DNA of 64,000 bases, from the NCBI RefSeq assembly GCF_003334305.1, contig NZ_QOWS01000003.1; one strand, given 5' to 3'. A program made the position numbers and the translations under genes. This document shows positions 5,436 to 22,899 of the stretch, in pieces. The notes beneath the pieces were generated by a model that did no database searches, was not told the DNA's origin, and saw only the letters and a list, made by a program, of their open reading frames with translations. Numbering within the stretch: position 1 is the stretch's first letter; the number at the start of each line of letters is the position of its first letter. Origin of the DNA: Escherichia coli (GTDB taxonomy: Bacteria > Pseudomonadota > Gammaproteobacteria > Enterobacterales > Enterobacteriaceae).

Positions 5436-5974
5436 ATCAACACCTCATAGTGAATTCTGTCCAAAACAATCATGTTCAGGTTTTTGATAAATAAAAAGCG
5501 ACTAAATACCACCTCAACATCAGGAGCGGCGATTACTTGGGTACCCGTGGACGAAGTAAAACCCATACGGCATATGTCTTTCAGTTTTTGAGTATCAGGT
5601 ACACCTACTAAGCCTTGGCTCCAGGCACTGAGGACCAGGGTTTTGGGGCAATGATTCCAGCGCTGTGCTGCTTCCAGTAAGTTTTTTAATTTTTCTTCCA
5701 GCTTTTGCTGCCCCTTCGCTGAACCATCAAAGCGTTCAAATTCGATTAAACACACAGGCGATGCAGAAGATTTATGAAACCAGCCCGAGTCAGAGCGAAT
5801 ATCAGCACCAAATGTCCCTGGAGCCGGGCATTCCACTACCGCCATAAATGACTGTTCATGCCCGAATGTATTCCAAACGCTACAGCCCAGGCTGTGGACC
5901 AATACATCCTGGTCCAATAGCTTACCGCTTGCTAAAAGTGGAAATGTCTCATTTACCCAGGCAACTTCAGGCAT
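5432..5974 (-). CDS. Hypothetical protein (about 180 aa), operon partner of the kinase
   Basis: ORF track 5432-6031; the first ATG is at 5974 (complement of 5972-5974), 7 nt after the HerA-like stop and preceded by AAGGTG. No recognisable motif. Confidence 0.7.
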   Translation of the reverse strand: MPEVAWVNETFPLLASGKLLDQDVLVHSLGCSVWNTFGHEQSFMAVVECPAPGTFGADIRSDSGWFHKSSASPVCLIEFERFDGSAKGQQKLEEKLKNLLEAAQRWNHCPKTLVLSAWSQGLVGVPDTQKLKDICRMGFTSSTGTQVIAAPDVEVVFSRFLFIKNLNMIVLDRIHYEVLM

Positions 5975-5981
5975 AGGCACC

Positions 5982-8814: not shown

Positions 8815-8816
8815 GC

Positions 8817-9665
8817 TTATAGCGTTCCTGTGTGTAGCTGCTCGCCAAGTAATGGGGCATAAGCCCAATATTGCGAGGCTTGTAGGCATGTTTTACCGGT
8901 AGCTGTTATGCCCGCGTCGTCGATAAAATCGTGCTGCCGCAACATCTCACCCCGCTTGACAATATCAAGGCTATTAACATCAAACATCAGCTTAACCGCA
9001 TTATGCTCAGACAACGCTTGTAAGTTCATGCCACCGCCAGCGTAGAGTAATAGCAATACAACTAGATCGTGCTTATCTGGCGTGTAGTCAGTTGATGGCG
9101 CTTTAGGTTCGATTATTCGTTCAGCAATGCCTGCATGGTCCACAAACCAATTCAACCAGCTCACCAGGAGCTCACTATGATCGAGTAAAGTCAGCGACCA
9201 CAAAGGTAACGTGGTAAAGGCTAATAGCCCACTGTTGCTGTGTTTTCGTATGTAGCGGGTATGCACTACATCACCGGCCTGGTGCTGGTAGCGATCTGCG
9301 CTGCCAGTAAAGCCAGCAATAGCCTGGTCTGTTTCACTGGCTAGCAAAGCGGTTAGCCCCGGTTCCTGCCCCCTCAAGCTCGCTGGTACTAACTGCCAAT
9401 CCAGTGGATAGGGCAATTGCGCTAATAAGGTAAATTGTTCTGCTTTCAGGTTTATTACCAAAGCGGCACAACCTGCCTGCATAGCCCAGTGATACAGGTG
9501 CTGCATAGTATTAGCGTCAGTCAACTCTTCTGCTTGCACTATTAACAAACCGCTGGCTGGCGGCGAGCTAATCCAATCCTTCATTAAGGGGGTAGCCCCC
9601 GCAACAGTTTGCAAAAAACGGCCTTTACGATTACTGGCCAGTGCCGCAGATAAATAACGACTCAT
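8817..9665 (-). CDS. Hypothetical protein (about 282 aa)
   Basis: ATG at 9665 (MSRYLSAAL...), 10 nt after the stop of the 1428-aa gene; the longer frame to 9692 needs a non-ATG start. No recognisable motif. Confidence 0.72.
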   Translation of the reverse strand: MSRYLSAALASNRKGRFLQTVAGATPLMKDWISSPPASGLLIVQAEELTDANTMQHLYHWAMQAGCAALVINLKAEQFTLLAQLPYPLDWQLVPASLRGQEPGLTALLASETDQAIAGFTGSADRYQHQAGDVVHTRYIRKHSNSGLLAFTTLPLWSLTLLDHSELLVSWLNWFVDHAGIAERIIEPKAPSTDYTPDKHDLVVLLLLYAGGGMNLQALSEHNAVKLMFDVNSLDIVKRGEMLRQHDFIDDAGITATGKTCLQASQYWAYAPLLGEQLHTGTL

Positions 9666-9675
9666 CGCGTCACCT

Positions 9676-12600
9676 CTACAAACCAGTGGCAAAGGTAAGG
9701 CGCATTTTTACAATGCCTTTGTCTACAAGTCCTTTCTGTTGCTCAGGTGTTAACACGGGTTCCTGATTTTGGCTCAAAGCCTTATAAATCGGTTGCCAAT
9801 CCGCCAGTGTTAAGCCTGTATCATTTAATATTTGCTCACCTTGACTCTGCCATTTGGCCTGGGTGCTTTCACACACCTGTTGAAGTTCTCTGACACCCAA
9901 ATTGCTCACATCCTCCAGAGTCAACGCTGCTGGTTCCGCTTGCTTTTGAGAAGCCAATAGCGGTTTTAATAACGGCAGCCAGCTGTTTACCTGTGCGATG
10001 GAGTTGCGTCTTACTTGGTTTAGACGCTCTTCAATTTTAAGTAGCTGGCCTTGAATCGGTGTAAGTTGACCGCGTGCCGGTTTTAAAAGCTCTTCTGGTA
10101 AATCCCGTAACGATGAAAACTGCCCATTGCGCAAACTGTTTTGCATACTTTGACGCTTGCTCTCTGCATCACTGGGGAGATCGGCAATAGCATCTTCAAT
10201 GAGCTGTAATTTCATTACCAGTTTTGGTAGCTCTGCAATGTCATCGGCGAACTGATACTCAGCCGTGGCGCTACTAAGCCATTCTTGCAGTTGTTGTGCA
10301 CGTAGTTTTTGCTCTGTGAGGTTATTAACCAGCTTACTAAATCGTTCTTTGCAGTTGCGGTAGCTGGACAAAATATGCCCCTGAATCTCCGCTATCGGCA
10401 ACTGTTGATCATTGTGCAGGTTTAAACCCACTTCTTGCGCTAAGGCTGAAAGCTTGTCATGCGCTCTACCTAAATCGAGTTTACGCAGGTAATGCAGTAA
10501 GGTATCGCTATCTGCTTGCTGCTCTTTTCGGCCAGTGGCACTGCTGGTATCGTCTTTTAACGCTCCATCTAAAATATGACCTATGGTGCGCAGCGTGTTG
10601 GTGTACAGACGTTTCGGAAAATTCGTCAGCGGGGCACACTCTGTTTCAACATCTATGATTAAATCAACGAGTCGGTTGTTGATACGCTCAGCGCTGCACT
10701 CAACAAACTCGGCAAATAAACAGGCCTGTTCAATCCGTTGATAAAGCGAGGTCGTTTTGTCTTCTAAGCTGAGAATATGGGCATCTTTTAGCATAGGCCT
10801 GGAACTATTAAGCGGTTTAACCTTTGCTACCAGCTCCAGCACTTCAGCGCGTTTGTGGATAAGCCCTGCCAATACTTTCGTGTCGTTGGCCTCGACCATA
10901 TCAGCCAATTGTTCTTCTTGCTGTTTGAGCACGTTAAATAGCGATTGTGCTTTTTCCAGCTGCTCTTTAGCTTCCACGGTGACGAAACCCAGCTTATTTT
11001 TACCCAGTGGCGCGAACATTTCATTAATGCGTGCATAACCATACACGCGGCTCATGACTTCCACATTGGCTGCATAGCTGCCCATATCGTTACCACGGAA
11101 CCAGTTTTGCGCTTCTCTAATGGCATTTTCTAAGCGGGAGCGCGGGTAGTGCTCCCAAATTGCCTGTTTTTCTGTTGGATTGGTTAAAGTGAGTAAGTTC
11201 AGCTCTCCACACCACCACATCCAGTCATTAAACACGCCTTTGGCGGTAACACTCGTTTCAGCCACATAGGCGAAATAAAACTGTTGCTTAAAGCCTTCGA
11301 ATTGCCACTTGTGCTTTTTATTAGGGTGAGCAATACGGGCTAAAAATAATGGGATCTGCGCCTGGCTTCGCTGCACATTATTAAGTTCAGTAAATAGCCC
11401 GGCATGTTCATCGGCAGTGTAACCTTTGGCAATATAGCTGCCCGGCACCTTAAGTTTATCCAACAAGCTGCTCAGCTCATTCACTGGCACGCCGTGTTGC
11501 TGCTGTAAATCGAGAATGCCATTTAACTCAGGGTGAGCAATGGCCAGCTGATACCAGCCTTTAAACAACAGGTCTCGGTCATTCGGTGATAATTTACCAT
11601 CTACCTTTAACGGCCAGGCAATTAAACCGCGCTGCTGCAAACGCTGGCGCCACTTGTGAATGGCATCCGTGGCAAAGGTTGTCAGGGCATGCAGCTTGTT
11701 TTTGAATTTCGCGGTAAAGCTGTCGGCAGTTAAATTCACGCCGTGCAACTGACATGCTGCCAAACTTAAGCCAATACGCTCTAACTGGTCTGCTTCGCTT
11801 GGGTTGACATAATGCAGCAGTATCGCATCACGCAACTCATTTCTTTCATCCAGTCGGCTGTATTGCTCCATGAGATGTGCAGAAGCAGTTAACGCTAATA
11901 CTGGCGTGCGACCATTTTGGTGGCTGTGGTTTGCCGCAAAGGTGTGAAGATTGTTCAGCTCAATTAGGTTGCTGACCCAGGCAAACAAGGCTTTACCTTC
12001 TGGGTGAAGCTTAAATCCATCCAGGGTAAGTAAACCACCCTGGCGGCCACGGGGCTCGGTTAAAATGGCCAAAGGTGCATCGTCGCTGCCCGCTTTATTA
12101 CTCAGCAAGTTTTCATCATAGGTCCAGTTGTTATCAAGTAATCTCACAAAGCCCGTTACACGGGCTAATGCCTTGATGAGCGGCTTCTGGCTACTTTGTT
12201 TGCTAAGTTCACTCATTGCCTGTTCATGAGCGTCGCCCATGGCGGGATCTTTAAAAATCAGTGAGTTTTGCTGGGCACTGCGATAGCGCAAATCCAGGCG
12301 CAGTAACATCGCCACACTGGGGCCAATATGCGTTGCTTCGCTGGCGTCCAGTTCGGTAGTTTCACCCACTAGCTTGTGCCATAAGGCATCGGCAGCGAAT
12401 TCAATCGCTGGGTGGTCATACAGCAAGCTGAGTAAGTATTTAAACTCACCTTTTGACAGAGGTAGTAATACCGCGCCTTTATCGCCGCTTGCGGCTTGTT
12501 CTTTAATTGAAAAAGTACGCAGGTTATCCAGCAAAGTATCTAAGTTCAGCGCTTGATCTACTGCAGGGTAGTACCATTCATCTTTATCGCGGCGGAATTT

Positions 12601-13962
12601 GGCTTGCTCCAGGGCTTGTCGGCACTGTAGGCGGTCAATGCTCAGTTTGCGGTAATGAGCGGCTATGGGTTCCAGATCTTCGTTTTTCAGCGCCAGCAAT
12701 TCTGTGGCATAGCCCATTTCAGCTAAGCGCACGGGTAATTGGCCGTAGAGCAAACTACGACATTCGGTCAATAGTGCCTGGTCGCGAGTTTGAATGCCTT
12801 CTATCGCGCCTTTATCCAGCACATGCCTGGCTACGCGGCCAGAGCCTGCCAGCACAGCTTCAAATAAATCGCCCACATCCTTGATACTGCGGCCTGCTTG
12901 TTGGTATTGGCTCAGCACTGCATCCACATTAGCCATGACCACGTTAAACCAACCGAAGTTGGCACCACTCATGGCGTATGCAGCTTCCACTAAACCAGCA
13001 GGGTAATTAAAACCCAGCTTGCCGTCTTTTAAGAGGCTTGCCACATAGTCTGATACATCGGCAAAGGCATTATGCTCAAGTTCCACTAACTCAAAGCGGC
13101 GTGCGACCGATTGAATTTCGCGCAATTGCTGGCCAAGCAGTGGTGAACACAGCGCTACATAGCGCAACCATGGAAGTTTACGGCGAGGGTCTTCCTCTTT
13201 AATTGCTTTACCAATCAGGCGAATGGCCTGGCCATCGAGGCGTTTATTTTGTTCATCTTCCAGGCCAAAGGTGGCGGCTTCTGCAACGGTTTCCAGCTCA
13301 TCCAGCACCACCAACATATACTGCACGCCAAAGCTCTTTAATACTTTATAGGCGGCTTGCACCAAACTGACTACCAGCGTTTGGTCAGTATAGAGGTCTT
13401 CTTCGCTGTGGTTGGCGTTCAGCTGTAAGGCATCTGCTAACAGTTCAGATTTAAAGCCAAATGGCATTAAGCGTTCATAGGCTTGTTTGGCAATTTCACT
13501 TTGAATCGATCCATCAAAGGTTTGGGTGGCCAGTGGTAATAGCGCCTGATATAAACCAAAAGCAAACCAGTTATCCGAGTTTTGATAATCTGATGCCACT
13601 TGCGAGTAGCGAATGTAGAGCGCCAGGTATTTGTCTTGCGTGTCGCGATTAAACAGCTGCTTATCGTGCAGTTGGCCTTGTTCGTCGCGGACAAACCAGC
13701 CCCTTGAACAGTCGTTAATTTGTGCAACCAATTCATGGCCTAAACGTGATTTACCCCGACCCCATTCGGCTTCGACGGCAAACACATGGGCAAAGCGATC
13801 ATCGTCGTGATCCACCGTATGCAAAAAGGTTTGAAAGCGTTTAAAAAAGCGGCTCTGGCCCACTAACGGGTCGCGAGGTGGATAATCTGATACGCCCGTC
13901 GCCGCCCAGCGATGTTGTTTTGCCAGGCTATCAACCATCTGTTCGTTTAATTCAAAACTCAT
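9676..13962 (-). CDS. Giant protein (1428 aa) with an N-terminal KAP-type P-loop NTPase domain and about 1200 aa of helical extension
   Basis: Walker A AEWGRGKSRL (the GxWGxGKS pattern of KAP NTPases) near residue 65 and Walker B MLVVLDELE about 150 residues later; the remainder is long and uninterrupted. ATGA overlap with the upstream gene. Confidence 0.85.
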   Translation of the reverse strand: MSFELNEQMVDSLAKQHRWAATGVSDYPPRDPLVGQSRFFKRFQTFLHTVDHDDDRFAHVFAVEAEWGRGKSRLGHELVAQINDCSRGWFVRDEQGQLHDKQLFNRDTQDKYLALYIRYSQVASDYQNSDNWFAFGLYQALLPLATQTFDGSIQSEIAKQAYERLMPFGFKSELLADALQLNANHSEEDLYTDQTLVVSLVQAAYKVLKSFGVQYMLVVLDELETVAEAATFGLEDEQNKRLDGQAIRLIGKAIKEEDPRRKLPWLRYVALCSPLLGQQLREIQSVARRFELVELEHNAFADVSDYVASLLKDGKLGFNYPAGLVEAAYAMSGANFGWFNVVMANVDAVLSQYQQAGRSIKDVGDLFEAVLAGSGRVARHVLDKGAIEGIQTRDQALLTECRSLLYGQLPVRLAEMGYATELLALKNEDLEPIAAHYRKLSIDRLQCRQALEQAKFRRDKDEWYYPAVDQALNLDTLLDNLRTFSIKEQAASGDKGAVLLPLSKGEFKYLLSLLYDHPAIEFAADALWHKLVGETTELDASEATHIGPSVAMLLRLDLRYRSAQQNSLIFKDPAMGDAHEQAMSELSKQSSQKPLIKALARVTGFVRLLDNNWTYDENLLSNKAGSDDAPLAILTEPRGRQGGLLTLDGFKLHPEGKALFAWVSNLIELNNLHTFAANHSHQNGRTPVLALTASAHLMEQYSRLDERNELRDAILLHYVNPSEADQLERIGLSLAACQLHGVNLTADSFTAKFKNKLHALTTFATDAIHKWRQRLQQRGLIAWPLKVDGKLSPNDRDLLFKGWYQLAIAHPELNGILDLQQQHGVPVNELSSLLDKLKVPGSYIAKGYTADEHAGLFTELNNVQRSQAQIPLFLARIAHPNKKHKWQFEGFKQQFYFAYVAETSVTAKGVFNDWMWWCGELNLLTLTNPTEKQAIWEHYPRSRLENAIREAQNWFRGNDMGSYAANVEVMSRVYGYARINEMFAPLGKNKLGFVTVEAKEQLEKAQSLFNVLKQQEEQLADMVEANDTKVLAGLIHKRAEVLELVAKVKPLNSSRPMLKDAHILSLEDKTTSLYQRIEQACLFAEFVECSAERINNRLVDLIIDVETECAPLTNFPKRLYTNTLRTIGHILDGALKDDTSSATGRKEQQADSDTLLHYLRKLDLGRAHDKLSALAQEVGLNLHNDQQLPIAEIQGHILSSYRNCKERFSKLVNNLTEQKLRAQQLQEWLSSATAEYQFADDIAELPKLVMKLQLIEDAIADLPSDAESKRQSMQNSLRNGQFSSLRDLPEELLKPARGQLTPIQGQLLKIEERLNQVRRNSIAQVNSWLPLLKPLLASQKQAEPAALTLEDVSNLGVRELQQVCESTQAKWQSQGEQILNDTGLTLADWQPIYKALSQNQEPVLTPEQQKGLVDKGIVKMRLTFATGL

Positions 13963-15260
13963 AACGACGATCCTTGAAGGTTTATTCTATTGGCGGCGCG
14001 TTTTTTATTGGCATAGCAGTTTTGCGCCAGTTGCTTAATGGTCCGTTGTAACGTTTGGCTTTTGTAGCCAAATAGTGGTGCTAACGGCAGGCTATAACAG
14101 GCATCGCTGAAGCTTGTATGAATTCGATATTGGCCGGCCTCTCCACGACCCGCCTCGGTAAATTGCCAGATTTTTTTTGCCAACAATTCGGCAATGAATG
14201 AGCTCAGGACGCGGTTTAGGCGGTTGATGCTTTCCGTGTTCGCATCGAGTGCCGGGTAGAGGGGTATATTGAGCTCACCGAGCAGAAGCACAAGAAACTC
14301 GGCCAAACTACCCAGACTCACCTCATCACCTTCAATGCCCTGTACCGCCACATTTATTTGACCGGGGGCAAAGGCATTTTGCCCGGCAGGTAAGGTGAGC
14401 AACAAACCGCCACGTTGCTCGGCAGCCCAGGCATCTTGCACAAAGATAATTAGACTGAGTAAAAATAACCAGGGCTGTTGGGCGAATAGCTCGGTAAGCG
14501 GCATGTTGTCATGACCCGAGCGGGACACCAATAACCAATCGGCATTGGGTTTAAGGTTATGTTCATCAAGCAAGGTATTAGGGAGTGCTAACAACCGCCC
14601 ACTACACCAGTTATTTGTCAGTTGTTTTGCGGTGACATCCACCGCTTGTATAGGTGCCGGTGGTTCATTTTGTTCGCTCACGGTAAACAAGGTATAGCTG
14701 GTGCGCAAAATACGACATAGCGCGGGAATGGCAGCATTGTCGTTTAGGCTATGACCGAGCAAATCGCGTTCGGTTTGTGCCAGAGGGCCGGCAATGATTT
14801 GCGGCGTGGTGGCAGTGCTTTCCAGCTGGGCTAAGACCCATTCACTGGCATTGCCCAGTTGCTGAATGAGTTTAACCAATACCATTGTGTCACTCATCGT
14901 GCCTGCTTCCTGGCAGCGAGCGGCGGCTAAATTGATCCAATGTTGGCGAACATCTGGGTTTAAGCCCAACAACGCTAATTGCCATTCACCTGACTGGCTT
15001 AAATCGTTAAAGGCATCAAGCAATGGTGCAGTGAGGCTAAAGGCGCTAACGATATCCGTTTCAGCGTCGTTCTTTTTCGGCTGTATTATTGGTTGTAGCA
15101 GTGACCTAAGGGCAGGCACAGCCGCCAATAACAATGCTGCTTTGTTGGCGTTCAAACCACCTTGTTGCCAAAGCTGCAGGCAGAGGTTAAGTGCCGCTTC
15201 GCTATTTACGGGGTCGTTATATTGCCTGGTTGTACTGCTGTCCGTGCCCCTTGTCTCCAT
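13959..15260 (-). CDS. Hypothetical protein (433 aa)
   Basis: Complete ORF starting METRGTDSS; 2-nt gap to the upstream HsdS-like gene and 4-nt overlap with the downstream gene. No recognisable motif. Confidence 0.78.
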   Translation of the reverse strand: METRGTDSSTTRQYNDPVNSEAALNLCLQLWQQGGLNANKAALLLAAVPALRSLLQPIIQPKKNDAETDIVSAFSLTAPLLDAFNDLSQSGEWQLALLGLNPDVRQHWINLAAARCQEAGTMSDTMVLVKLIQQLGNASEWVLAQLESTATTPQIIAGPLAQTERDLLGHSLNDNAAIPALCRILRTSYTLFTVSEQNEPPAPIQAVDVTAKQLTNNWCSGRLLALPNTLLDEHNLKPNADWLLVSRSGHDNMPLTELFAQQPWLFLLSLIIFVQDAWAAEQRGGLLLTLPAGQNAFAPGQINVAVQGIEGDEVSLGSLAEFLVLLLGELNIPLYPALDANTESINRLNRVLSSFIAELLAKKIWQFTEAGRGEAGQYRIHTSFSDACYSLPLAPLFGYKSQTLQRTIKQLAQNCYANKKRAANRINLQGSSL

Positions 15261-15262
15261 CT

Positions 15263-16741
15263 TTACTCTTCAGCCTCCGCTTGCGCCGCCTCTTCCAGCA
15301 AACTGTATAACTCATCCACATCGCTAAATAGCGGTGTGGCACCTTCAATGGCATAACCCTCAGCGCTCAGTTTGCTTAAAATCGCTTGATCAAAGCTGCT
15401 GTCGCCATCTTCCAGGGCTTGTTGGGCCTGGATTAGTTGTTGCTCAGTCAGTTGGCCTTCGATTAATGACTCAACTAGAGTTTTGGCAGATGCTGTTAAC
15501 TTTTTTGCATATGCTGCCGTAGTAACGGCTAGTCTCAGCTTACTTCCTATTTCTCTATTCTTCGCTATGTCAATCGGAATCAGAATATTTAACAGGTTTT
15601 CTGAAGTCACTTTTGGTACAACGCTGCCAGTAGTCACACCTTTCCAACACGGAAAGTGTTTATCCAGGAACCTACAAATAGACTCAATATCATATTCATC
15701 TTTTACCTTTAAAACCCAAACATGGTTGTTTGCCCAAAACTTTCCATCAGCTACATTTGCACAGCCAATAGAGCCATCTTGCGCAATAATCAGATATTTA
15801 CCGTTGAAATTGAATTCGGTATGAGTATCTATTGGACCTGATGCGCCATAGTAAAAATATGGTCCGGGTACTCTGTCTTCCGATTTAATAGGGTCGCCAC
15901 ATTTGCATTTACTAATGAAATTAGATAGTTTTGATGAATTCCTAAAGGTCATTTGACTATCGGCCGCACGTGCAAACTCAGGAGCTAAAGACACTGCTGA
16001 TAATACCTGTTGTTTCATTCTTCTAGGTTTCAATGTTAATGAATCAACAAGGTTGAAGTGAAATAAATCTTTAATTTTTCTATCAGCCATTCCTTCAAGT
16101 CGTTTCGCCCAAGCGCGTAACTGCTCGGCTTGGCGAACTTTATCCCCGATGTATTTTTGGGCTAGAGGTAAAACTTTAGGAACCGCTAGCGAGCGGACAC
16201 TTGGGAAGTCAATTGCAGGGCGAGTTGCGCCATATGCTTCCTTCCAGATCGCTACTTGTCCGGTTTTGCTATTCAAATATGCCACCAAGAAATAGGCGTC
16301 AACTTTTTTGGGATCGGGCTTGAATCTGACTGAGTGCTGACTAATGTTGGCCGGTAGATGTTTAGCTGACACAACAGCCGATTTACCAAATTTTGCACCA
16401 GTAATCGTAAGTAAAACGTCGCCATCCACTAATCGGCTGCGCTTTAATTTTTCATCATCTTCATCGTTAATAAAAACAGCTTCTTCAGCTTGCAAGAACA
16501 TTTCTTCAACTTCAGAAGTGCGATAAAACTTAACACGGCCTTTTTCTAAATAATTTGCTCCTAAAGGTGTTGCGCCACTAGCCACCCCGCGCTTTGAATC
16601 AATTACCGCTTCTAGGGGCAAAGCACCTAGGTTGTCTTTTATCTTATTAATTTGTCTTTCAAATCGCGGTTGATAGTGCCAAGGATCAATCCGCCTTTCA
16701 GACAATTGTTCGGGTGTTCTTTTAAAAATAGTTGCCATCAC
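15263..16741 (-). CDS. Type I restriction-modification specificity subunit-like protein (HsdS-like, two target-recognition domains)
   Basis: Two repeated TRD-end segments (GATRPAIDFPSVRSLAVPKVLPLAQ and GVTTGSVVPKVTSENLLNILIPIDIAKNREIG) plus a helical C-terminus, resembling HsdS. Start is GTG at 16741 or ATG at 16738, overlapping the methyltransferase stop. Confidence 0.75.
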   Translation of the reverse strand: MMATIFKRTPEQLSERRIDPWHYQPRFERQINKIKDNLGALPLEAVIDSKRGVASGATPLGANYLEKGRVKFYRTSEVEEMFLQAEEAVFINDEDDEKLKRSRLVDGDVLLTITGAKFGKSAVVSAKHLPANISQHSVRFKPDPKKVDAYFLVAYLNSKTGQVAIWKEAYGATRPAIDFPSVRSLAVPKVLPLAQKYIGDKVRQAEQLRAWAKRLEGMADRKIKDLFHFNLVDSLTLKPRRMKQQVLSAVSLAPEFARAADSQMTFRNSSKLSNFISKCKCGDPIKSEDRVPGPYFYYGASGPIDTHTEFNFNGKYLIIAQDGSIGCANVADGKFWANNHVWVLKVKDEYDIESICRFLDKHFPCWKGVTTGSVVPKVTSENLLNILIPIDIAKNREIGSKLRLAVTTAAYAKKLTASAKTLVESLIEGQLTEQQLIQAQQALEDGDSSFDQAILSKLSAEGYAIEGATPLFSDVDELYSLLEEAAQAEAEE

Positions 16742-18885
16742 TCACCCCGCTTATAAGCCGATACAATCTTATCCAGATCGTTTGCGACACCGGCGTTATA
16801 GTCTTCGATATTGTTTTTCACCACATAACCCAATGTTTCAGCCACTGCCATAAACACGTCGGTTTGTGGCTCGGGCAAAAATTGCTCTGGCTGGTTGGGG
16901 TTAGCATGGCGTTTTTGTAAATACAAAATCGAGGTTTTGGCCCCCGTACCGGAGAGTTTAAAGCAGTCGCTCGGCAATGAAATTACTGCTTTTACAATAG
17001 CTTTACCGCCAACAAACTCGCCGGTTTTTTCGTCTTTTTTCCCCATAATGTACTCACGGACATAACGGTCGCCGGAGTTACATAAAATACCATCAGGCAG
17101 CACTATTAACAGGCGGCCACCGGGTTTAAGCAGTTGCAGGCAGCGGTCGATAAAAAGTACTGCTGGGTCAATAGTGGCACCTACCGGTTGCCAGTTGCCC
17201 TTGCTATCGGGCTTGCTGCCCAGCGCGAGCCCTGCGGTTGTAGGCTGCAGGCTGTAAAACGGCTTTTTATCAGTCCCGCCCGTTCTGCGCAAATCGGTAC
17301 GGTAGCCCGCCCATTTAGGCTCGCCGTTTTCATCCAGCTCTAAATCACCGATATCCTGCCACTTCATTTTCACGTGGTCATACCAGGCGTTGTAGCTATC
17401 AACGACTTTTTTGGTCGGACGAAAACCACCGAGCACTTGCTCCATATTGGCTTCGTAATTGGCTTTTGAGTTTTGACCATTTTTGCCTTTATCAAATTTA
17501 GGCGTACCGAACGGCGGGTTGGTGCAAATCAGGTCAAAGCTATTCGGCTTCAGAGCGTTAGTAGTGAGTGAGTTGTCGGTATAAAAAATCTGCGCTTTGG
17601 GGGCACCTTGCAATGCCATATTCACGCGGGCCAGCATTACCATGCGTGGTGCAGCATCGGCACCGGTAAATGCACAGTCGCGTAATTTTTGTTTCAATGA
17701 TTCTTTTTTATCGTCGGCCAGCACCAGCTTAAAATCGATCCATTTATCAATCTGGCTTAACGCCACCGAGCCAAAACCAAAGGAGCCACAGGTGGGGTCG
17801 CAGAAACGAAAATCGCCATTGGCTAAGCGCGATCGCATTTCATCGTCATCGTCGATGTCGTGCATAGCAATTTCTAGCATGGCCTGTTTTACTGGGTTTG
17901 GTGTTAAATAAACGCCAAGGCCACCTTTGGATTCAAAGTTAGCGCGTAGGAATACATCAAACACTCTGCCTAGTAAATCTCCTGACACATCAGCCAACGT
18001 GCCGTGTTCTTTCGCGATTTTACCGTCGTTGGTTTTTACCGGACCCAGGTTTTGTATTGCTTCCAGCAAATCCTGATAGTTTTTCGCAACAGACAGTCGC
18101 AGGTGTGTTTCTTTACTAAAGATGGGGTTACGTGAGCCATCATCTGAGATCACAACGTAGTTTTCGTGGCTTTTAAATTCCTCAAAGGCGGCTTTGATTT
18201 GGGCAACGGCTTTATCGCCGTGGCTCTCCACATATTGCCAATCAAAGACATCACGAAAACGCAGGGTATTTCCCTCATCATCTTTAAAGGTAAGGTCTTC
18301 ATCGTGATGCAGGCGGAAAGTTTCTAAAAACAGAAGCTTAGCTACTTCTTCAATAATGTCGTTCTTGTCGTTTACCTTGTCTTTGGTAACGCGATAAACA
18401 TTTTCATGGAAGGCATCAAATCGCTGCATTAAGCGTGTATAAACACGCATCGACCAGCGAAAGGTTGGATCACGCTCCATGCGATCAAAGCTACGTAATT
18501 CTTCCAGACCAGGCAGGGTATCTGCACCGTGGGTACCGTCAGATCCATCGGCACCGAACAAGGCCAAAATACGTTGGTTCAAGCCATCGTCCACAACGGC
18601 ATATACTGGCCAGTCACCTTCGATATCACTTAACAGCTGATAGGCTAAATCATCAAACTTTGCAGTGTCAGCGGCGTATTCCCAATGGCCTTCTGTCAGC
18701 GCAATCAACATGACTGGTGGCGTTAAGTTGCCTTCAACCAGGCCTTGAATGAGACCAGCCTTGGCGAATTCATGCTCGGGTAATTCGACCAATGGCTGAG
18801 TAAACTCGGAGTGCTGTTTGACCAGTTTATTGAACAGTGCTTCTAGCTGCTGTTGCGGGTCTTGTTTTTTTGCTTCTTTTGCCAT
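16738..18885 (-). CDS. N6-adenine DNA methyltransferase (HsdM-like) with an extra N-terminal region of about 350 aa
   Basis: 715 aa; AdoMet motif I-like DPTCGSFGFG and catalytic motif IV NPPFG; the domain order resembles the type I M subunit. Confidence 0.85.
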   Translation of the reverse strand: MAKEAKKQDPQQQLEALFNKLVKQHSEFTQPLVELPEHEFAKAGLIQGLVEGNLTPPVMLIALTEGHWEYAADTAKFDDLAYQLLSDIEGDWPVYAVVDDGLNQRILALFGADGSDGTHGADTLPGLEELRSFDRMERDPTFRWSMRVYTRLMQRFDAFHENVYRVTKDKVNDKNDIIEEVAKLLFLETFRLHHDEDLTFKDDEGNTLRFRDVFDWQYVESHGDKAVAQIKAAFEEFKSHENYVVISDDGSRNPIFSKETHLRLSVAKNYQDLLEAIQNLGPVKTNDGKIAKEHGTLADVSGDLLGRVFDVFLRANFESKGGLGVYLTPNPVKQAMLEIAMHDIDDDDEMRSRLANGDFRFCDPTCGSFGFGSVALSQIDKWIDFKLVLADDKKESLKQKLRDCAFTGADAAPRMVMLARVNMALQGAPKAQIFYTDNSLTTNALKPNSFDLICTNPPFGTPKFDKGKNGQNSKANYEANMEQVLGGFRPTKKVVDSYNAWYDHVKMKWQDIGDLELDENGEPKWAGYRTDLRRTGGTDKKPFYSLQPTTAGLALGSKPDSKGNWQPVGATIDPAVLFIDRCLQLLKPGGRLLIVLPDGILCNSGDRYVREYIMGKKDEKTGEFVGGKAIVKAVISLPSDCFKLSGTGAKTSILYLQKRHANPNQPEQFLPEPQTDVFMAVAETLGYVVKNNIEDYNAGVANDLDKIVSAYKRGE

Positions 18886-18935
18886 GATGTTTTCTAAAAT
18901 CCTTTAATACAGCCAATGGTTACTACAAATGCCGG

Positions 18936-19322
18936 CTAATTTATCAGTACCAGCAAGGGGCCTTTAATCTCTATCTGCGCGTGCTTCTGTGCCAGTTTGC
19001 GTATCTGCTGTTCACTGGTCGTAATACCAGCAGGGAGCTTTTTCAGTACTTGTGCAAGGGGCATGCGCCCACCAGCTTGATGCAACAATGATACCAAATG
19101 TGCCGCGATATCAGGTATAACCTGGTACGTTGCCGTTGTGGGCCCTTTTAGATGATTACTTTGAGGCAATGAGGCAAGCCATAGCGAAACTTGAGACTGG
19201 CTAAAGCCAAGTGTTTGCCAGAGGGTTTGGTTCTCATTAAATACAACGGCGGCGCTTCTGGGAGTTGCTGTTTGCTGAGTTATTAGTTGTTCCAGGCTTT
19301 GTCGCTGGTATTCATGGGTCAT
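18936..19322 (-). CDS. Small hypothetical protein (128 aa), possibly helix-turn-helix
   Basis: ATGA overlap with the McrC-like gene stop; a 50-nt gap precedes the methyltransferase gene. The segment TLWQTLGFSQSQVSLWLAS loosely resembles an XRE-type HTH (weak). Confidence 0.65.
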   Translation of the reverse strand: MTHEYQRQSLEQLITQQTATPRSAAVVFNENQTLWQTLGFSQSQVSLWLASLPQSNHLKGPTTATYQVIPDIAAHLVSLLHQAGGRMPLAQVLKKLPAGITTSEQQIRKLAQKHAQIEIKGPLLVLIN

Positions 19323-20662
19323 CTCATGCCTCCACTATAGGATACTGAAGCAGCCATCCGATCCAGTTTGGGGCTCATTGTACAGGACACGTCATTCGGC
19401 CACATCATCCTCTCACCGCGTTTTGCCATTATCCGGTATGGCACAACCCATAATTTTAAAGTCTCCGAGAAAGCAAAATGCTGCGCTATAGGTTGGCTAA
19501 AGTCATCATGCGCAGGGTAAATCAGATACATTTCGCCATTCCCACCAAGATATTTTTGTCCGTAGGCAAACATTTGATAGAAGTCAGCTTGTGCCAGTCC
19601 ATAGAGTGATTTTGTCTGCTGGCTGCTATTCACCAGCTTCCATTTTGTATCCATCACCATTTCGGTTTGAACTGGTTTGTGTGATTGAATCAGCAAGTCG
19701 GGGCGAAGCTTAAAGCAATCTTTAAGTCCATGCTTTACCAAAGAATAAGTTGCTGCTTGAGGTAAAACTTTGAGGTGAGGTGGTAACTCGTCGGGTAGGG
19801 TCTGTGCCACAAAGGATTCAAATACCGCTTCCATAGGGAACAAAAGTGATATCGCTTTGGTGTTTCCCTGCAAAGCACTCGGGCTCATTCCCCTCAGGAT
19901 CAATTGCGCCCATGCCATTGGCTCGTTGTAATGAGCCATACCACGCTCGAGGCGTAAGTTGTTTATATCACGTTCAATATCCCGGCTAAGTGGAATACCG
20001 TCAAACGCAAAACGCAGTTCGTAAAGCCAGCGTTGATTATCTGATGACAGCTGCAGACTAAGAAGCTTATCTAGTGCGGAGTGTAAGAGCCGATTGGCTG
20101 CACAATCAGGCATGTAGTCATCATAATCGACACAAAACTTATGGCGATTCACCGCGTTATGTCGCAGCTGTGCAGAAAGCATCAGCTTGCCCTTCATAAA
20201 AGCCAGATTACCTTGCTTGCTCACATAGTCGGAGCGTAAACCCTGTTTAAGCAATTGGCTGACGCTATGCAAAAACTGGTTAATAAAAATCTCAAGCAAA
20301 GGCATACGCTGAGCCTGAAGAGTGGCTTGCTGGGTTTGAATATGTCGGAACCCAGGCAGATGGCTTAGCATCGTCAGCAATGTTTGACGTGCATTAGCCG
20401 CTGTGAGGTTTTTACCAACCTTGGGCAGTATCTCAAGCTGGAAACCGTGAGGTGTTGAAAGCATCCCTGCGTAGTTTTGAACCTGAAGCAATTTGAAGCC
20501 TGAGCGAGAGGTGAGTTTGAGGAACTGGCTCCCTTGATTACTTGCCAGGCTAAGCGCTTCTAAATAATTAAAGACCTGTGGAGGCACCGGTTTTGCGCCA
20601 ACTGAAGCCGCTTTTCCACTCCCCAAGAGGTCATATTCAAAAACGGAGATAACTTCACCCAT
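19319..20662 (-). CDS. McrC-like PD-(D/E)xK nuclease
   Basis: 447 aa; RPDLLI ... MDTKWK arrangement typical of the McrC catalytic core; overlaps the upstream McrB-like gene by 8 nt, as in mcrBC. Confidence 0.8.
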   Translation of the reverse strand: MGEVISVFEYDLLGSGKAASVGAKPVPPQVFNYLEALSLASNQGSQFLKLTSRSGFKLLQVQNYAGMLSTPHGFQLEILPKVGKNLTAANARQTLLTMLSHLPGFRHIQTQQATLQAQRMPLLEIFINQFLHSVSQLLKQGLRSDYVSKQGNLAFMKGKLMLSAQLRHNAVNRHKFCVDYDDYMPDCAANRLLHSALDKLLSLQLSSDNQRWLYELRFAFDGIPLSRDIERDINNLRLERGMAHYNEPMAWAQLILRGMSPSALQGNTKAISLLFPMEAVFESFVAQTLPDELPPHLKVLPQAATYSLVKHGLKDCFKLRPDLLIQSHKPVQTEMVMDTKWKLVNSSQQTKSLYGLAQADFYQMFAYGQKYLGGNGEMYLIYPAHDDFSQPIAQHFAFSETLKLWVVPYRIMAKRGERMMWPNDVSCTMSPKLDRMAASVSYSGGMR

Positions 20663-22730
20663 GATTTACTGCCTGCTCATCAAGGGGAGTCTGTTGGGGC
20701 TGATAAATTGAACGATAAGCCTGTGGAATATTCCAGATCTCTTGATCGAAATCTTTGAGCTCATAAGCTGTTGATTGCTGATCATGGCGTCGTAAACCAT
20801 GGTTGTTACCAAAAAGCGTATCGAGATCGTCGGTTTTCTCAATCACGAATTGCAGGTTGTCGTCTTGCTTTTGATTGTCTGCCAGCACCAACCGGATCTT
20901 GTTCCAGTCATCGAAAAAGTATTCCTGTAAAAGCGGAATGATCTTTTTCTGGAATGCGATCTTCAATTGTTTAAACGCAGCTTCTTCATCACCGGCATCG
21001 AGTGCATTTTTTACCGGCATAAAGAACGCATGCCCCAGCGTATGTTCACGATCGTAAAGAGCCTCGATGCGGCTATTGAGTTTCTCTAACAACGACTCGA
21101 GCTCTATGCCTTTCACCTTAGCTTCACTCAGTAAAGAGAGATCAGGCATCATTTCGACAAAGTCAAAGCGACGGCGCAAAGCCGTGTCCATCAGAGCTAA
21201 AGAACGGTCCGCTGTATTCATGGCTCCGATGATATCGACATTGCCGGGTACGCTGAAGTGATCACCGCTATAAGCCAGTTGCAGGCTCATCGCATTGGGC
21301 ATGCCTGCACGCTTGTCTACTTCAATGAGTGAGATTAGTTCACCAAAGATCTTGGATATGTTACCGCGATTGATCTCATCAATGAAAATGGCGTAGCGAT
21401 GTCCTGGATCGGCATTCGCACGTTGGCAAAGGCGCATAAAGATACCCGGCTCAATGGGATAAGAGATATTGCCACTCTCGTCAGAGCGAGCGCGTATACC
21501 TTCAATAAATTCTTCATAGCCGTAAGATTGGTGGAACGTAACCACCGCAAAACGCTGGATGGCTTCGGCAGATTTAGGGCCACGTTTAAGTTCGGCGTAG
21601 AGCTCTACCAAATCCTCCACTTGCTCGAGCTGTGAATCAACTAGAAACCATTCGCTGTTATCTGTTTTGTTAAATACGGCAGGCTCACGCCGATTCTTAT
21701 AATCAACGGTTAACGACTCGGGAACTGTATAGGATTGCAAAGCTGCCCAGGCAGTATTCGATAGATTGCCATTACGACCGTTTAATAATGCCTTACGTTG
21801 AAACCACATATGTTCAATAATTTGGCGAACTTTCGCTCGTTTCCCAAGATCGAGCAGCACCAGCGTTATAACCTGCATCCAGTTCAACGATTCAAGGCGA
21901 GAATCCAGCCAGGCATCACGATCAGCGGGAACAGCATGAGAAGTGTACTCTTTCATTTTTTGCTGCAACCTGAAGGTCTTGCCAGTGCCAGGGGGGCCAA
22001 AGAAGATCACGTTAGTTGGTGAATGTAGGATGATCTTGTTCTCGATGGGCTCACTGCGGGTTATGGATGTAGTGCTAGCTACTTTCTCCTGCTTTTGTTC
22101 ATTATCGCGTTCACGGAGCAATTCATAGAGATGCCAGATGGCCATATTCACATAATAAGGATCTGTATCAGGAGATTGGGCGTGTATGGCTTGTTTCAAT
22201 TCATAGTTTTTCTGTAACCAATTTCCGGTCAGTACCAAACCGAGATGGAAGTGCTGATTTAAGAATTCTGCTGCTTTATTAAAAGCATTCTCATCCACAG
22301 TACTGGTGTAGTTTTCTGGCGAGAACGCGGCAAAGACGCGATTTCTCAAACTCCAATACATACGCTTGAGAAGTCCGTTTTCTTTAGCTTGTTGAAGTGC
22401 ATTGCCAACATATTGGTAAGTTTCTTCATCCGGCTGTTGCCGAATTCGTTCAGTTAGTTCTCTAAGCAGTGGCAGGCTTTGCTGATATTCTGCTAAGGAT
22501 GGAACGCCCTGGCGAATACTTGCAATGCCGTTGTCACGCTCATACCAAAGCTGTTTGACCAGACCATCTGTTGCAGGCTCAGCAAAAGTTGAGGTTTGCT
22601 GTAGCAAAGTCGTAAATGCACGGTATCGCTGATACCATCTGGAAGCTGTGTAATTTTTATCTTTCGCCAGGGCATCAATCAATTCACTAATCGTTAGCCT
22701 ACCTGCTTCGACACTATCTACAAGAGTCAT
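20655..22730 (-). CDS. McrB-like AAA+ NTPase with a distinct N-terminal domain of about 230 aa
   Basis: 691 aa; Walker A GPPGTGKTF, Walker B FIDEINRGN and the McrB-type ALRRRFDF motif. First gene of the operon; GAGGAA ribosome-binding site 8 nt upstream of the ATG. Confidence 0.85.
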   Translation of the reverse strand: MTLVDSVEAGRLTISELIDALAKDKNYTASRWYQRYRAFTTLLQQTSTFAEPATDGLVKQLWYERDNGIASIRQGVPSLAEYQQSLPLLRELTERIRQQPDEETYQYVGNALQQAKENGLLKRMYWSLRNRVFAAFSPENYTSTVDENAFNKAAEFLNQHFHLGLVLTGNWLQKNYELKQAIHAQSPDTDPYYVNMAIWHLYELLRERDNEQKQEKVASTTSITRSEPIENKIILHSPTNVIFFGPPGTGKTFRLQQKMKEYTSHAVPADRDAWLDSRLESLNWMQVITLVLLDLGKRAKVRQIIEHMWFQRKALLNGRNGNLSNTAWAALQSYTVPESLTVDYKNRREPAVFNKTDNSEWFLVDSQLEQVEDLVELYAELKRGPKSAEAIQRFAVVTFHQSYGYEEFIEGIRARSDESGNISYPIEPGIFMRLCQRANADPGHRYAIFIDEINRGNISKIFGELISLIEVDKRAGMPNAMSLQLAYSGDHFSVPGNVDIIGAMNTADRSLALMDTALRRRFDFVEMMPDLSLLSEAKVKGIELESLLEKLNSRIEALYDREHTLGHAFFMPVKNALDAGDEEAAFKQLKIAFQKKIIPLLQEYFFDDWNKIRLVLADNQKQDDNLQFVIEKTDDLDTLFGNNHGLRRHDQQSTAYELKDFDQEIWNIPQAYRSIYQPQQTPLDEQAVNHG

Positions 22731-22899
22731 CGTGACTTTTCCTCTGTTGTGACATTACTTATTTTTTAATTAATATGAGGTATTCTAACTATATTGAGTT
22801 AATCGTTGTGACAAGTGCCTGTTATATATACAACTATCTGTTAACTCAGCTCTAATTTAAATACAATGTAAGGTTGTAGGGTGAATGCTGTTATCAACC
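22731..22899 (-). promoter_or_regulatory. AT-rich intergenic region, probable promoter of the 12-gene operon
   Basis: 169 bp between the HNH gene stop and the McrB-like start; candidate -35 TTGTCA (complement of 22809-22814) and -10 TATAGT (complement of 22788-22793) with a short 15-bp spacer, so the hexamer call is weak. Confidence 0.35.

What the first reader, a model, noticed from the sequence alone, without database searches (positions are those of the whole stretch)
18886..19322. Small possibly DNA-binding protein and the only sizeable intergenic gap inside the operon, directly upstream of the methyltransferase
The 128-aa ORF overlaps the McrC-like stop and is followed by a 50-nt gap before the methyltransferase start. 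The segment TLWQTLGFSQSQVSLWLAS loosely resembles an XRE-type HTH. In many RM systems a small controller protein and an internal promoter set the timing of methyltransferase versus nuclease expression; this arrangement could play that role.
Basis: inference. Interest (0 to 1): 0.45.

Follow-up and report, generated by a model that had tools for sequence, protein, structure and literature searches.

The report
Winged-helix first gene of MADS-like defence
The 128-residue ORF is a real, conserved, uncharacterised two-domain protein with a basic winged-helix domain that always sits just upstream of the methyltransferase of a MADS-like anti-phage system, but it is not a classical restriction-modification controller protein and the 50-nt gap shows a ribosome-binding site, not a recognisable promoter.

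Summary
A 128-aa ORF (19322-18936, minus strand) overlaps the McrC stop by ATGA. A 50-nt gap, the largest in the gene row, separates it from the methyltransferase.

The window is an E. coli defence island, and 284 of 5426 complete genomes carry this segment. The ORF belongs to a small family with no hit in Pfam, NCBIfam, PADLOC or PHROGs.

In all 20 related loci examined, the gene lies directly 5' of the same N6-methyltransferase, with a 26-86 nt gap. The upstream neighbour varies: McrC, Mrr, a genuine MAD1 HTH, an XRE-type HTH, or none. So it is the first gene of a ten-gene MADS-like core, not part of McrBC.

AlphaFold gives three parts:
- a disordered linker;

The gap has no sigma-70 match, inverted repeat, Rfam hit or unusual RNA fold. 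Only a purine-rich RBS motif next to the ATG is shared across lineages.

My best reading is a nucleic-acid-binding accessory subunit of the methylation module. A regulator role is possible but less supported. This is a modest result: a new family of an ordinary kind.

The parts
18936..19322 (-). 128-aa ORF (WP_000148644.1, 'hypothetical protein'). It is the conserved first gene of the MADS-like core, at the position of Madl2.
   Evidence: ORF list and sequence. RefSeq annotation. Homologues. Always directly 5' of the N6-methyltransferase in 20 loci.
19167..19322 (-). N-terminal domain, residues 1-52: a four-helix bundle (helices 3-19, 24-30, 32-38, 42-51). It is acidic to neutral and fast-evolving.
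19116..19166 (-). Linker, residues 53-69, predicted disordered. It is longer in distant relatives.
   Evidence: pLDDT below 50 for residues 55-69. Variable length in alignment A2.
18939..19115 (-). C-terminal winged-helix domain, residues 70-128, with topology H-strand-H-H-strand-strand. The third (recognition-position) helix is TSEQQIRKLAQKH, and the wing turn G121-P122 is invariant or nearly so. Net charge is about +4.
19319..19322 (-). ATGA overlap of the McrC-like stop and the small-gene start. This is the usual signature of translational coupling.
   Evidence: Sequence. The same overlap occurs in the Ewingella, Pantoea and Erwinia loci.
18886..18935 (-). 50-nt intergenic leader of the methyltransferase gene. 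No promoter-like site, inverted repeat or RNA family match was found.
   Evidence: A gap of 26-86 nt is present in all loci.
18886..18899 (-). TTTTAGAAAACATC directly before the ATG. It corresponds to the only part of the gap shared across lineages (consensus TTAAGAARACATC-ATG), a purine-rich weak Shine-Dalgarno region.
   Evidence: Gap sequences of 17 loci. The reading as an RBS is inference.
16738..18885 (-). 715-aa N6-adenine DNA methyltransferase (HsdM family, distantly MAD2-like), the invariable downstream neighbour.
   Evidence: PADLOC MTase_I E = 0 and mad2 2e-20; NCBIfam MADS2 112 bits, below the cutoff of 720. 72-97% protein identity across 11 loci from other gammaproteobacterial genera, and 46-64% in three distant metagenomic loci.
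3966..16741 (-). The rest of the MADS-like core: HsdS (15263-16741), 433 aa (13959-15260), 1428 aa (9676-13962), 291 aa (8817-9692), 410 aa (7657-8889), HerA-like ATPase (5982-7667), 199 aa (5432-6031) and Ser/Thr kinase (3966-5435).
   Evidence: Sub-threshold hits to mad5, mad8/HerA and mad6. The same gene order occurs in other genera. It matches the description of madl3-madl11 in the supplement of bioRxiv 10.1101/2023.03.30.534895.
19319..22730 (-). McrB-like (20655-22730) and McrC-like (19319-20662) genes: a separable type IV restriction module placed upstream in Enterobacterales only.
   Evidence: NCBIfam McrB and McrC hits. Present upstream in 5 Enterobacterales loci and replaced by other genes elsewhere. 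82 E. coli genomes match the McrC 3' end at about 92% identity but not the small gene.

Best explanation
The ORF encodes a conserved, non-enzymatic accessory protein. It is the first gene of a ten-gene MADS-like (methylation-associated) anti-phage core: small protein, N6-methyltransferase, HsdS, 433 aa, 1428 aa, 291 aa, 410 aa, HerA-like ATPase, 199 aa, Ser/Thr kinase.

Shown:
- The protein has two domains: an acidic, fast-evolving four-helix N-domain and a conserved, basic C-terminal winged helix, joined by a flexible linker.
- The gene is invariably linked to the methyltransferase gene and is independent of the McrBC module.

Inferred:
- The winged helix binds nucleic acid, most likely DNA.
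- The N-domain docks on a partner of the system. The protein would then work with the methyltransferase/specificity module as a DNA-binding accessory, much as BrxA is thought to serve BREX, rather than as the system's transcription factor.
- The 50-nt gap is the methyltransferase's own translation-initiation leader with a purine-rich RBS. It uncouples methyltransferase translation from the upstream genes. It is not a recognisable internal promoter or operator.
For: - Real gene and family.
- Charge: the C-domain is basic in 36 of 40 members (median net charge +2.9). The N-domain has median charge -1.4.
- Linkage: in 20 of 20 loci the gene is directly 5' of the N6_Mtase, followed by HsdS, a 423-454 aa protein and a 1427-1429 aa protein.
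- Variable upstream neighbour: McrC, Mrr, MAD1, HTH_26, a 714-aa HTH_3 protein, a 458-466 aa protein with weak hits to type I specificity subunits, or a 272-666 nt intergenic region.
- A separate regulator exists: a genuine MAD1 HTH (NF047737, 85-89 bits, cutoff 80) lies beside the small gene in Vibrio and Pseudoalteromonas, and upstream of it in Marinomonas with Mrr between them. The predicted-regulator role is therefore already covered, yet the small gene is kept.
- System identity: the methyltransferase, HsdS, HerA and kinase give sub-threshold hits to MAD2, MAD5, MAD8 and MAD6. The gene content and order match the 'MADS-like' madl operon in the supplement of bioRxiv 10.1101/2023.03.30.534895.
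- Gap: there is no promoter, inverted repeat or Rfam match, and RNA folding is not stronger than in shuffles. Only the RBS-proximal motif is shared between lineages.
Against: - Only one basic residue of the third (recognition-position) helix is widely conserved: position 108 is R or K in 32 of 40 members. Whole-protein pI ranges from 4.8 to 9.8 across the family.
- Being first in the core, small, and carrying a winged helix is also what a regulator looks like.
- A gap rather than an overlap before the methyltransferase is unusual for partners made in fixed ratio.
- A mirror-tree test did not single out a partner (Spearman 0.30-0.50 for the N-domain against the other system components).
Confidence: 0.45

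Rival explanations
1. Regulator. The small protein is a transcriptional or translational regulator of the methyltransferase and downstream genes. It would bind DNA near a promoter, or bind the mRNA leader/RBS in the gap, and so set methyltransferase levels.
For: - It has a winged-helix fold with a conserved basic character.
- It is the first gene of the core, and a non-overlapping gap before the methyltransferase is kept in all 20 loci.
- Within lineages the gap is conserved as well as the neighbouring coding DNA: 93-99% for the 86-nt type in four genera and 94-96% among four Enterobacterales.
- The motif around the RBS and start codon is shared by lineages and could be a binding site.
- MAD1 and Madl1 at the head of related operons are predicted regulators.
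Against: - No sigma-70-like site and no inverted repeat lie in or next to the gap.
- The gap bodies of different lineages are unrelated, although the third (recognition-position) helix is almost invariant.
- The high identity of the 86-nt gap is part of a block of about 230 nt that also covers synonymous sites of both flanking genes in mosaic loci. It does not by itself show selection on the gap.
- The gene has no constant upstream region where an autoregulatory operator could sit.
- Dedicated HTH genes (MAD1, HTH_26, and WYL nearby) co-occur with it.
Confidence: 0.27
2. Protein-protein adaptor or sensor. The winged helix and the variable N-domain bind proteins rather than nucleic acid. Possible partners are a phage trigger, an anti-defence protein, or another core subunit.
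For: - After HsdS, the N-domain is the most variable element of the system: 48% mean identity, against 74% for the C-domain and 80-89% for the methyltransferase and the 1428-aa protein. This pattern is typical of interfaces in an arms race.
- The N-domain lacks basic residues.
Against: The positive charge of the C-domain is conserved across the family. No partner could be identified, and no fusion proteins were found that would point to one.
Confidence: 0.2
3. Part of McrBC. The small protein is a third subunit or specificity factor of the upstream McrBC-like type IV enzyme, as the ATGA overlap might suggest.
For: ATGA overlap with mcrC in the window and in the Ewingella, Pantoea and Erwinia loci.
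Against: - Outside Enterobacterales the gene occurs without an adjacent McrBC but always with the methyltransferase.
- 82 E. coli genomes match the McrC 3' end at about 92% identity but not the small gene.
Confidence: 0.03
4. Classical R-M controller (C) protein. An XRE-type dimer would bind a C-box and delay nuclease expression relative to the methyltransferase.
For: Small size and location in a restriction/modification-type gene row. PADLOC has a control-protein model, which hits a different upstream gene in L022, weakly.
Against: - No HTH_3 or HTH_31 match and no PADLOC or NCBIfam match.
- No XRE-like structural match.
- It precedes the methyltransferase, not a nuclease.
- No palindromic operator was found.
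Confidence: 0.03

Closest known systems
Madl2, the second gene of the 'MADS-like' operon noted in Pseudomonas aeruginosa defence islands (Maestri et al., bioRxiv 10.1101/2023.03.30.534895, Supplementary Notes)
   Same: The published description gives Madl3 as methylase, Madl4 as specificity subunit, Madl6 as ATPase, Madl9 as helicase/DptH-like and Madl11 as kinase, with the others hypothetical. This matches the window's gene order when the small gene is counted as number 2.
   Different: The correspondence is by position only. No P. aeruginosa sequence was compared. The paper reports no prediction for these hypothetical proteins and did not test the system. The window lacks the WYL gene (Madl1) at the head; WYL genes lie nearby in the Vibrio and Shewanella loci.
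MAD1, the HTH protein at the head of the MADS operon (NCBIfam NF047737; PADLOC mad1)
   Same: Both are small, predicted DNA-binding proteins encoded just upstream of the methyltransferase of a methylation-associated defence system. Deleting mad1 had a limited effect on defence in P. aeruginosa.
   Different: The small protein has no sequence match to MAD1 models. MAD1 is a protein of about 60 aa in the excisionase (HTH_17) family. Genuine MAD1 genes co-occur with the small gene in at least five loci, so the two are not alternatives.
Controller (C) proteins of type II restriction-modification systems (e.g. C.PvuII, C.AhdI, C.Esp1396I); comparison from established knowledge
   Same: Both are small proteins in a gene row that contains a methyltransferase and nucleases.
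   Different: C proteins are XRE-type five-helix dimers. They bind palindromic C-boxes upstream of their own gene and usually precede the nuclease gene. None of these features is found here.
BrxA of BREX; functional analogy recalled from the literature, not tested here
   Same: Both are small, non-enzymatic, helical, multi-domain proteins encoded at the start of a methylation-based defence operon that also holds a large ATPase and a methyltransferase. BrxA is reported to bind DNA.
   Different: No sequence or structural match to BrxA appeared in any search here. The sizes differ (about 200 aa against 128 aa).
Generic winged-helix domains, including HARE-HTH (N-terminal domain of RNA polymerase delta subunit)
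   Different: The hhalign probability was only 25% and there was no Pfam HARE-HTH hit. The fold class is established, but the family is not.

Membership tests
R-M controller (C) protein | XRE-type (HTH_3/HTH_31) helix-turn-helix domain of about 80-100 aa | tested here: not met
R-M controller (C) protein | Palindromic C-box operator upstream of its own gene | tested here: not met
   The upstream sequence is mcrC coding DNA, with an ATGA overlap. No inverted repeat lies in 18840-18990. The best palindrome in the gap is CCATTGG, at chance level (p 0.84 against shuffles).
R-M controller (C) protein | Gene precedes, and is co-expressed with, the restriction endonuclease gene | tested here: not met
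   It follows McrC and precedes the methyltransferase in all 20 loci.
MAD1 (MADS HTH protein) | Match to NCBIfam NF047737 or PADLOC mad1 (excisionase-type HTH of about 60 aa) | tested here: not met
   No hit even at E <= 10 for the window protein or for 13 relatives. As a positive control, the neighbouring genes in L002 and L020 score 88.7 and 85.3 bits (cutoff 80).
MADS-like (madl) system | Operon with an N6-methylase, specificity subunit, large ATPase, HerA/DptH-like helicase, Ser/Thr kinase and several unannotated genes, in that order | tested here: met
   Domain hits and gene order agree with the description in the supplement of 10.1101/2023.03.30.534895.
MADS-like (madl) system | Sequence homology of each gene to the P. 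aeruginosa madl genes | not tested
A relative of the small protein exists in Pseudomonas frederiksbergensis (33% identity).
MADS-like (madl) system | WYL-domain gene (Madl1) at the head of the operon | tested here: not met
   No WYL gene is annotated in the E. coli island. WYL genes are present near the Vibrio and Shewanella loci.
Canonical MADS (mad1-8) | NCBIfam equivalog scores above cutoff for MAD2, MAD5, MAD6 and MAD8, and presence of MAD3, MAD4 and MAD7 | tested here: not met
   MAD2 scores 112 bits (cutoff 720), MAD5 90 (400) and MAD6 117 (460). MAD8 is hit only through PADLOC. There are no MAD3, MAD4 or MAD7 hits.
Winged-helix fold | H1-strand-H2-H3-strand-strand topology with structural similarity to solved winged helices | tested here: met
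Winged-helix fold | Actual binding of DNA or RNA | not testable with these tools
   There is only indirect support: the C-domain is basic in 36 of 40 members.
HARE-HTH | Profile-level similarity to the HARE-HTH family | tested here: inconclusive
No Pfam hit.

The most novel reading that the evidence does not exclude
The small protein is an obligatory, previously unrecognised core subunit of MADS-like systems. Its conserved basic winged helix would bind the conserved RBS/start region of the methyltransferase mRNA, or the corresponding DNA, and so set the methyltransferase dose. Its fast-evolving acidic N-domain would sense a phage or host signal. This would be a feedback device distinct from C proteins, MAD1 and WYL regulators.
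Probability: 0.1. Interest if true: 0.55.

Novelty: new variant of a known kind. Interest (0 to 1): 0.3.

Why it matters
MADS and MADS-like systems are large, recently named anti-phage systems whose mechanism is unknown. Several of their genes carry no annotation.

This work shows three things about one of those genes:
- It is invariably linked to the methyltransferase.
- It has a defined two-domain architecture with a basic winged helix.
- It is distinct from the MAD1 HTH.

That gives a concrete handle for dissecting how the methylation module is targeted or controlled. It also corrects the reading of this E. coli island: three stacked modules (an HNH enzyme dependent on phosphorothioated DNA, McrBC, and a MADS-like core) rather than one R-M operon with a C protein. 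The gain is incremental. It is a fold assignment and a gene-context rule for an uncharacterised family, not a new principle.

Tried and rejected
- Sequence libraries. Pfam, NCBIfam, PADLOC and PHROGs gave no significant family for the small protein or its relatives. A PDB sequence profile search gave only chance-level hits with E >= 0.17, including homeodomains for residues 12-61.
- Remote structure search in AFDB50 found only uncharacterised relatives and generic winged helices. No fusion protein appeared that would hint at a partner.
- Cluster look-up for organism or product names of distant members returned none.
- Promoter. The standard scan and a relaxed scan of 19100-18870 (at least 7 of 12 matches) found nothing usable. 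The best site scored 7 of 12 and lies inside the coding region.
- Operator. No inverted repeat was found, and the palindrome analysis is at chance level for the window.
- RNA element. There was no Rfam match. Folding z-scores of eight gap regions ranged from -2.0 to +1.8 and were mostly positive. A hairpin across the small-gene stop codon was tested in 12 lineages: mean z -0.57, with only two below -1.9. I rejected it as a general feature.
- Selection on the gap. The 86-nt gap is 93-99% identical in four genera while the flanking genes are 65-83% identical. However, the high-identity block extends about 85 nt into the small gene and about 60 nt into the methyltransferase, including synonymous sites, and the loci are mosaics. 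This is not clean evidence for selection on the non-coding part.
- Own-methylation site in the gap. I rejected this because the Enterobacterales loci keep the same gap while HsdS differs (32% identity in Pantoea).
- Mirror-tree search for a co-evolving partner was not discriminating.
The scan with A1 found only 9 loci in 100,044 species genomes.
- HARE-HTH assignment was inconclusive.

Full report
**Setting**

The window is Escherichia coli chromosome. The segment 18800-19420 is 99-100% identical in 284 of 5426 complete E. coli genomes, always on the chromosome.

In the RefSeq record NZ_CP030331 the island lies between a truncated sialate O-acetylesterase gene (next to nanC and nanM) and a tyrosine integrase. 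On one strand it reads:
- a restriction endonuclease that binds phosphorothioated DNA
- McrB family
- McrC family
- hypothetical protein (the ORF in question, WP_000148644.1)
- HsdM-family methyltransferase
- restriction subunit S
- four hypothetical proteins
- a HerA-domain protein
- a hypothetical protein
- a serine/threonine kinase

**Observation**

The 128-aa ORF at 19322-18936 (minus strand) is present.
- Its ATG overlaps the McrC TGA as ATGA.
- The methyltransferase starts at 18885, leaving 50 nt.
- With the RefSeq gene starts, the junctions from McrB to the kinase are -8, -4, +50, -1, +35, -4, +10, +2, -11, +7 and -4 nt. The gap is the largest, but not the only positive spacing.

**The gene is real**

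- A word-indexed search found 88 protein clusters down to 52% identity in Enterobacterales, Vibrio, Shewanella, Pseudoalteromonas, Acinetobacter, Marinomonas, Rheinheimera and Hahellaceae.
- A profile search of 1.84 billion representatives found 41 members. All are 66-166 aa except one doubtful 733-aa hit.
- Foldseek against AFDB50 adds uncharacterised relatives of 120-146 aa in Pseudomonas, Desulforapulum, Desulfonema, Marinobacter, Legionella, cyanobacteria, Chthoniobacter and Azospirillum.
- The family is rare: 9 loci in one genome each of 100,044 species.
- No member matches Pfam, NCBIfam, PADLOC or PHROGs.

**Which system it belongs to**

I examined 20 related loci (L002-L022).
- In every one, the gene lies directly 5' of an N6_Mtase gene on the same strand.
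- Where the contig allows, this is followed by an HsdS gene, a 423-454 aa gene and a 1427-1429 aa gene.

The gene upstream varies:

| Upstream neighbour | Loci |
|---|---|
| McrC | five Enterobacterales |
| Mrr | Shewanella, Marinomonas |
| HTH_17 protein of about 60 aa | Vibrio, Pseudoalteromonas |
| HTH_26 protein | Acinetobacter |
| 714-aa HTH_3 protein | L022 |
| 458-466 aa protein with weak hits to type I specificity subunits | L005, L021 |
| 272-666 nt of non-coding DNA | L018, L019 |

In the other direction, 82 E. coli genomes match the McrC 3' end at about 92% identity but not the small gene. In the one inspected (UMNK88), McrBC is followed by IS3 remnants. The small gene therefore heads the methyltransferase-containing core and is not part of McrBC.

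The core proteins give sub-threshold hits to the MADS models:
- MAD2: 112 bits against a cutoff of 720.
- MAD5: 90 against 400.
- MAD6: 117 against 460.
- mad8/HerA through PADLOC.

There are no MAD3, MAD4 or MAD7 hits. The MADS preprint (bioRxiv 10.1101/2023.03.30.534895) describes a second, untested 'MADS-like' operon. In it, Madl1 is a WYL protein, Madl3 the methylase, Madl4 the specificity subunit, Madl6 an ATPase, Madl9 a helicase/DptH-like protein and Madl11 a kinase. Four further proteins are hypothetical with no prediction. The window's ten genes, from the small ORF to the kinase, fit positions 2 to 11 exactly. The small ORF is thus Madl2 by position. This is an inference, because no P. 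aeruginosa sequence was compared.

**The protein**

AlphaFold with a 43-sequence alignment gave mean pLDDT 75.
- N-terminal region: helices 3-19, 24-30, 32-38 and 42-50.
- Linker: residues 55-69, with pLDDT below 50.
- C-terminal region: H72-82, E86-88, H89-94, H104-113, E117-120 and E123-126. This is winged-helix topology.

Modelled alone, the N-domain is confident over residues 1-50 (block-mean pLDDT 87-92). It matches nothing specifically.
- No lambda-repressor-like (XRE) protein is in the top 60.

Its QVxLW(L/F) motif explains the chance-level homeodomain hits. It lacks the basic residues that follow that motif in homeodomains.

Across 40 diverse members:
- The C-domain is basic in 36 (median net charge +2.9).
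- The N-domain is neutral to acidic (median -1.4).
- Position 95 is K/R in 35 of 40, position 108 is R/K in 32 of 40, G121 is invariant and P122 is present in 39 of 40.

Over 16 loci, mean pairwise identity is as follows:

| Component | Mean pairwise identity |
|---|---|
| HsdS | 39% |
| Small protein, N-domain | 48% |
| 433-aa protein | 67% |
| Small protein, C-domain | 74% |
| Methyltransferase | 80-89% |
| 1428-aa protein, first 240 residues | 89% |

**Is it the regulator?**

Three lines of evidence argue that it is not the system's main transcription factor.

1. Genuine regulator-type genes co-occur with it.
   - The roughly 60-aa genes in the Vibrio and Marinomonas loci score 88.7 and 85.3 bits on NCBIfam NF047737 (MAD1; cutoff 80). 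In Vibrio the gene directly precedes the small gene. In Marinomonas it lies upstream of Mrr, which in turn precedes the small gene.
   - Homologues lie directly upstream of the small gene in V. hannami and two Pseudoalteromonas loci.
   - WYL genes lie nearby in Vibrio and Shewanella.
   - The E. coli window has no MAD1 homologue.
2. The gene has no constant upstream region. It is often translationally coupled to unrelated genes.
3. The gap offers no recognisable operator (see below).

The evidence does not exclude a regulatory role. The preprint notes that mad1 deletion had little effect on defence, so a small HTH gene at the operon head is not necessarily the key regulator in these systems.

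**The gap**

- The sigma-70 consensus scan found no site on the coding strand between 18500 and 19975.
- My relaxed scan of 19100-18870 found nothing at 8 or more of 12 matches. Operon segments of equal length average 0.77 such hits.
- There is no inverted repeat and no Rfam match.
- The RNA does not fold better than shuffles (z +1.26 for the window).
- Gap length across loci is 26-86 nt. The bodies of the different gap types are unrelated. All but the three most distant loci (L005, L007, L022) end in (T)TAAGAARACATC, or AAATAAACATC in the 86-nt type, followed by ATG; L005 and L007 instead carry a canonical AAGGAG. I read this purine-rich stretch as the methyltransferase's own, rather weak, Shine-Dalgarno region. 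This is inference.

Within lineages the gap is well conserved.
- It is 94-96% identical among E. coli, Ewingella, Pantoea and Erwinia.
- The 86-nt type is 93-99% identical among Shewanella, two Pseudoalteromonas and Marinomonas, while the flanking genes are 65-83% identical.
- An alignment shows that this block also covers the last 85 nt or so of the small gene and the first 60 nt or so of the methyltransferase, including synonymous sites. The loci are mosaics with other blocks of 95-100% identity. The conservation could therefore reflect recombination history as well as function.
- A hairpin across the small-gene stop codon is not a consistent feature (mean z -0.57 over 12 lineages).

**Mechanism**

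Shown:
- The gene is real.
- It has two domains, with a basic winged helix.
- It is strictly linked to the methyltransferase of a MADS-like core.
- It is independent of McrBC and distinct from MAD1 and from C proteins.

Inferred:
- The winged helix binds nucleic acid.
- The variable acidic N-domain contacts a partner or signal.
- The protein assists the methylation/recognition module.
- The gap gives the methyltransferase an independent translation start.

I put this reading at about 0.45. A regulator acting at DNA or at the leader RNA is about 0.27. A purely protein-binding adaptor or sensor is about 0.2. McrBC subunit and classical C protein are about 0.03 each.

**Comparison with known systems and verdict**

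The protein fails every tested defining feature of C proteins and of MAD1. It fits the published outline of the MADS-like operon, but only by position. Its fold class is certain and its family is new to the libraries searched.

This is an uncharacterised family of an ordinary kind: a small winged-helix protein at the head of a defence operon. Interest is modest.

Noticed in passing
L012:6388-6437, L002:10385-10436, L003:10364-10449, L007:1249-1293; window 18886-18935: In four unrelated gap types, the best perfect palindrome (CCAATATTGG, AATGATCATT, TCGTTGAACGA, ATCATATGAT) is centred 30-32 nt upstream of the methyltransferase ATG. Each alone is only p about 0.09-0.14 against shuffles. The E. 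coli gap has just CCATTGG, also centred about 30 nt upstream of the ATG but no better than chance (p 0.84). The sequences differ although the winged helix is invariant, and they do not follow HsdS. The coincidence in position remains unexplained.
   Followed up: partly
L015:6436-6470; window 18865-18871: The Vibrio hannami methyltransferase is frameshifted in the A-run just after its start codon (A6, against A7 in the related Vibrio locus). The window carries an A7 run at the same place. This could be phase variation or an assembly error.
   Followed up: no
window 19387-19520; L023 (E. coli UMNK88): 82 E. coli genomes match only the first 134 nt of the query (the McrC 3' end) at about 92% identity and lack the small gene. 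In UMNK88, the one inspected, McrBC is followed by IS3 remnants and by DUF499/DUF3780 anti-phage genes.
   Followed up: partly
window 18936-19322 (alleles P0086, P0031, P0027): Truncated alleles of the small gene exist in E. coli: 72 aa (seen on 30 contigs), 112 aa and 144 aa. Their C-terminal tails are unrelated, which suggests that the locus is disrupted in some lineages. Some genomes also match only part of the methyltransferase 5' end.
   Followed up: no
window 22731-22899: Upstream of mcrB, TGTCACAAC occurs twice 59 nt apart (22746-22754 and 22805-22813). A possible promoter is TTGTCA, a 15-nt spacer, then TATAGT. Only the AATATAG(T/A) box and the last 40 nt or so are conserved in most other Enterobacterales loci (not Rosenbergiella), and the repeat is specific to E. 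coli.
   Followed up: partly
window 22900-23829: An HNH restriction endonuclease that binds phosphorothioated DNA (NCBIfam NF045808, 437 bits against a cutoff of 180) lies directly upstream of McrBC. The island therefore stacks three defence modules next to an integrase.
   Followed up: no
L002:9810-9992, L020:4455-4631, L014:5783-5947, L013:4085-4258, L015:5810-5989: Genuine MAD1 genes (above the NCBIfam cutoff where scanned) sit at the head of these MADS-like loci, although the other core genes score far below the canonical MADS cutoffs. The two system types seem to share the MAD1 module.
   Followed up: partly
L003, L013, L014, L020 (small gene through the 1428-aa gene): The loci are strongly mosaic. 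P. prydzensis has a divergent central part of the methyltransferase (46-74% nucleotide identity, mostly 50-70%), flanked by blocks of 90-99% identity. The HsdS target-recognition regions are unrelated between loci.
   Followed up: no
L005:571-1971, L021:8628-10004: In two distant metagenomic loci, the gene overlapping the start of the small gene encodes a 458-466 aa protein with weak hits to type I specificity subunits and MAD5. It may be a second S-like subunit upstream of the small gene.
   Followed up: no
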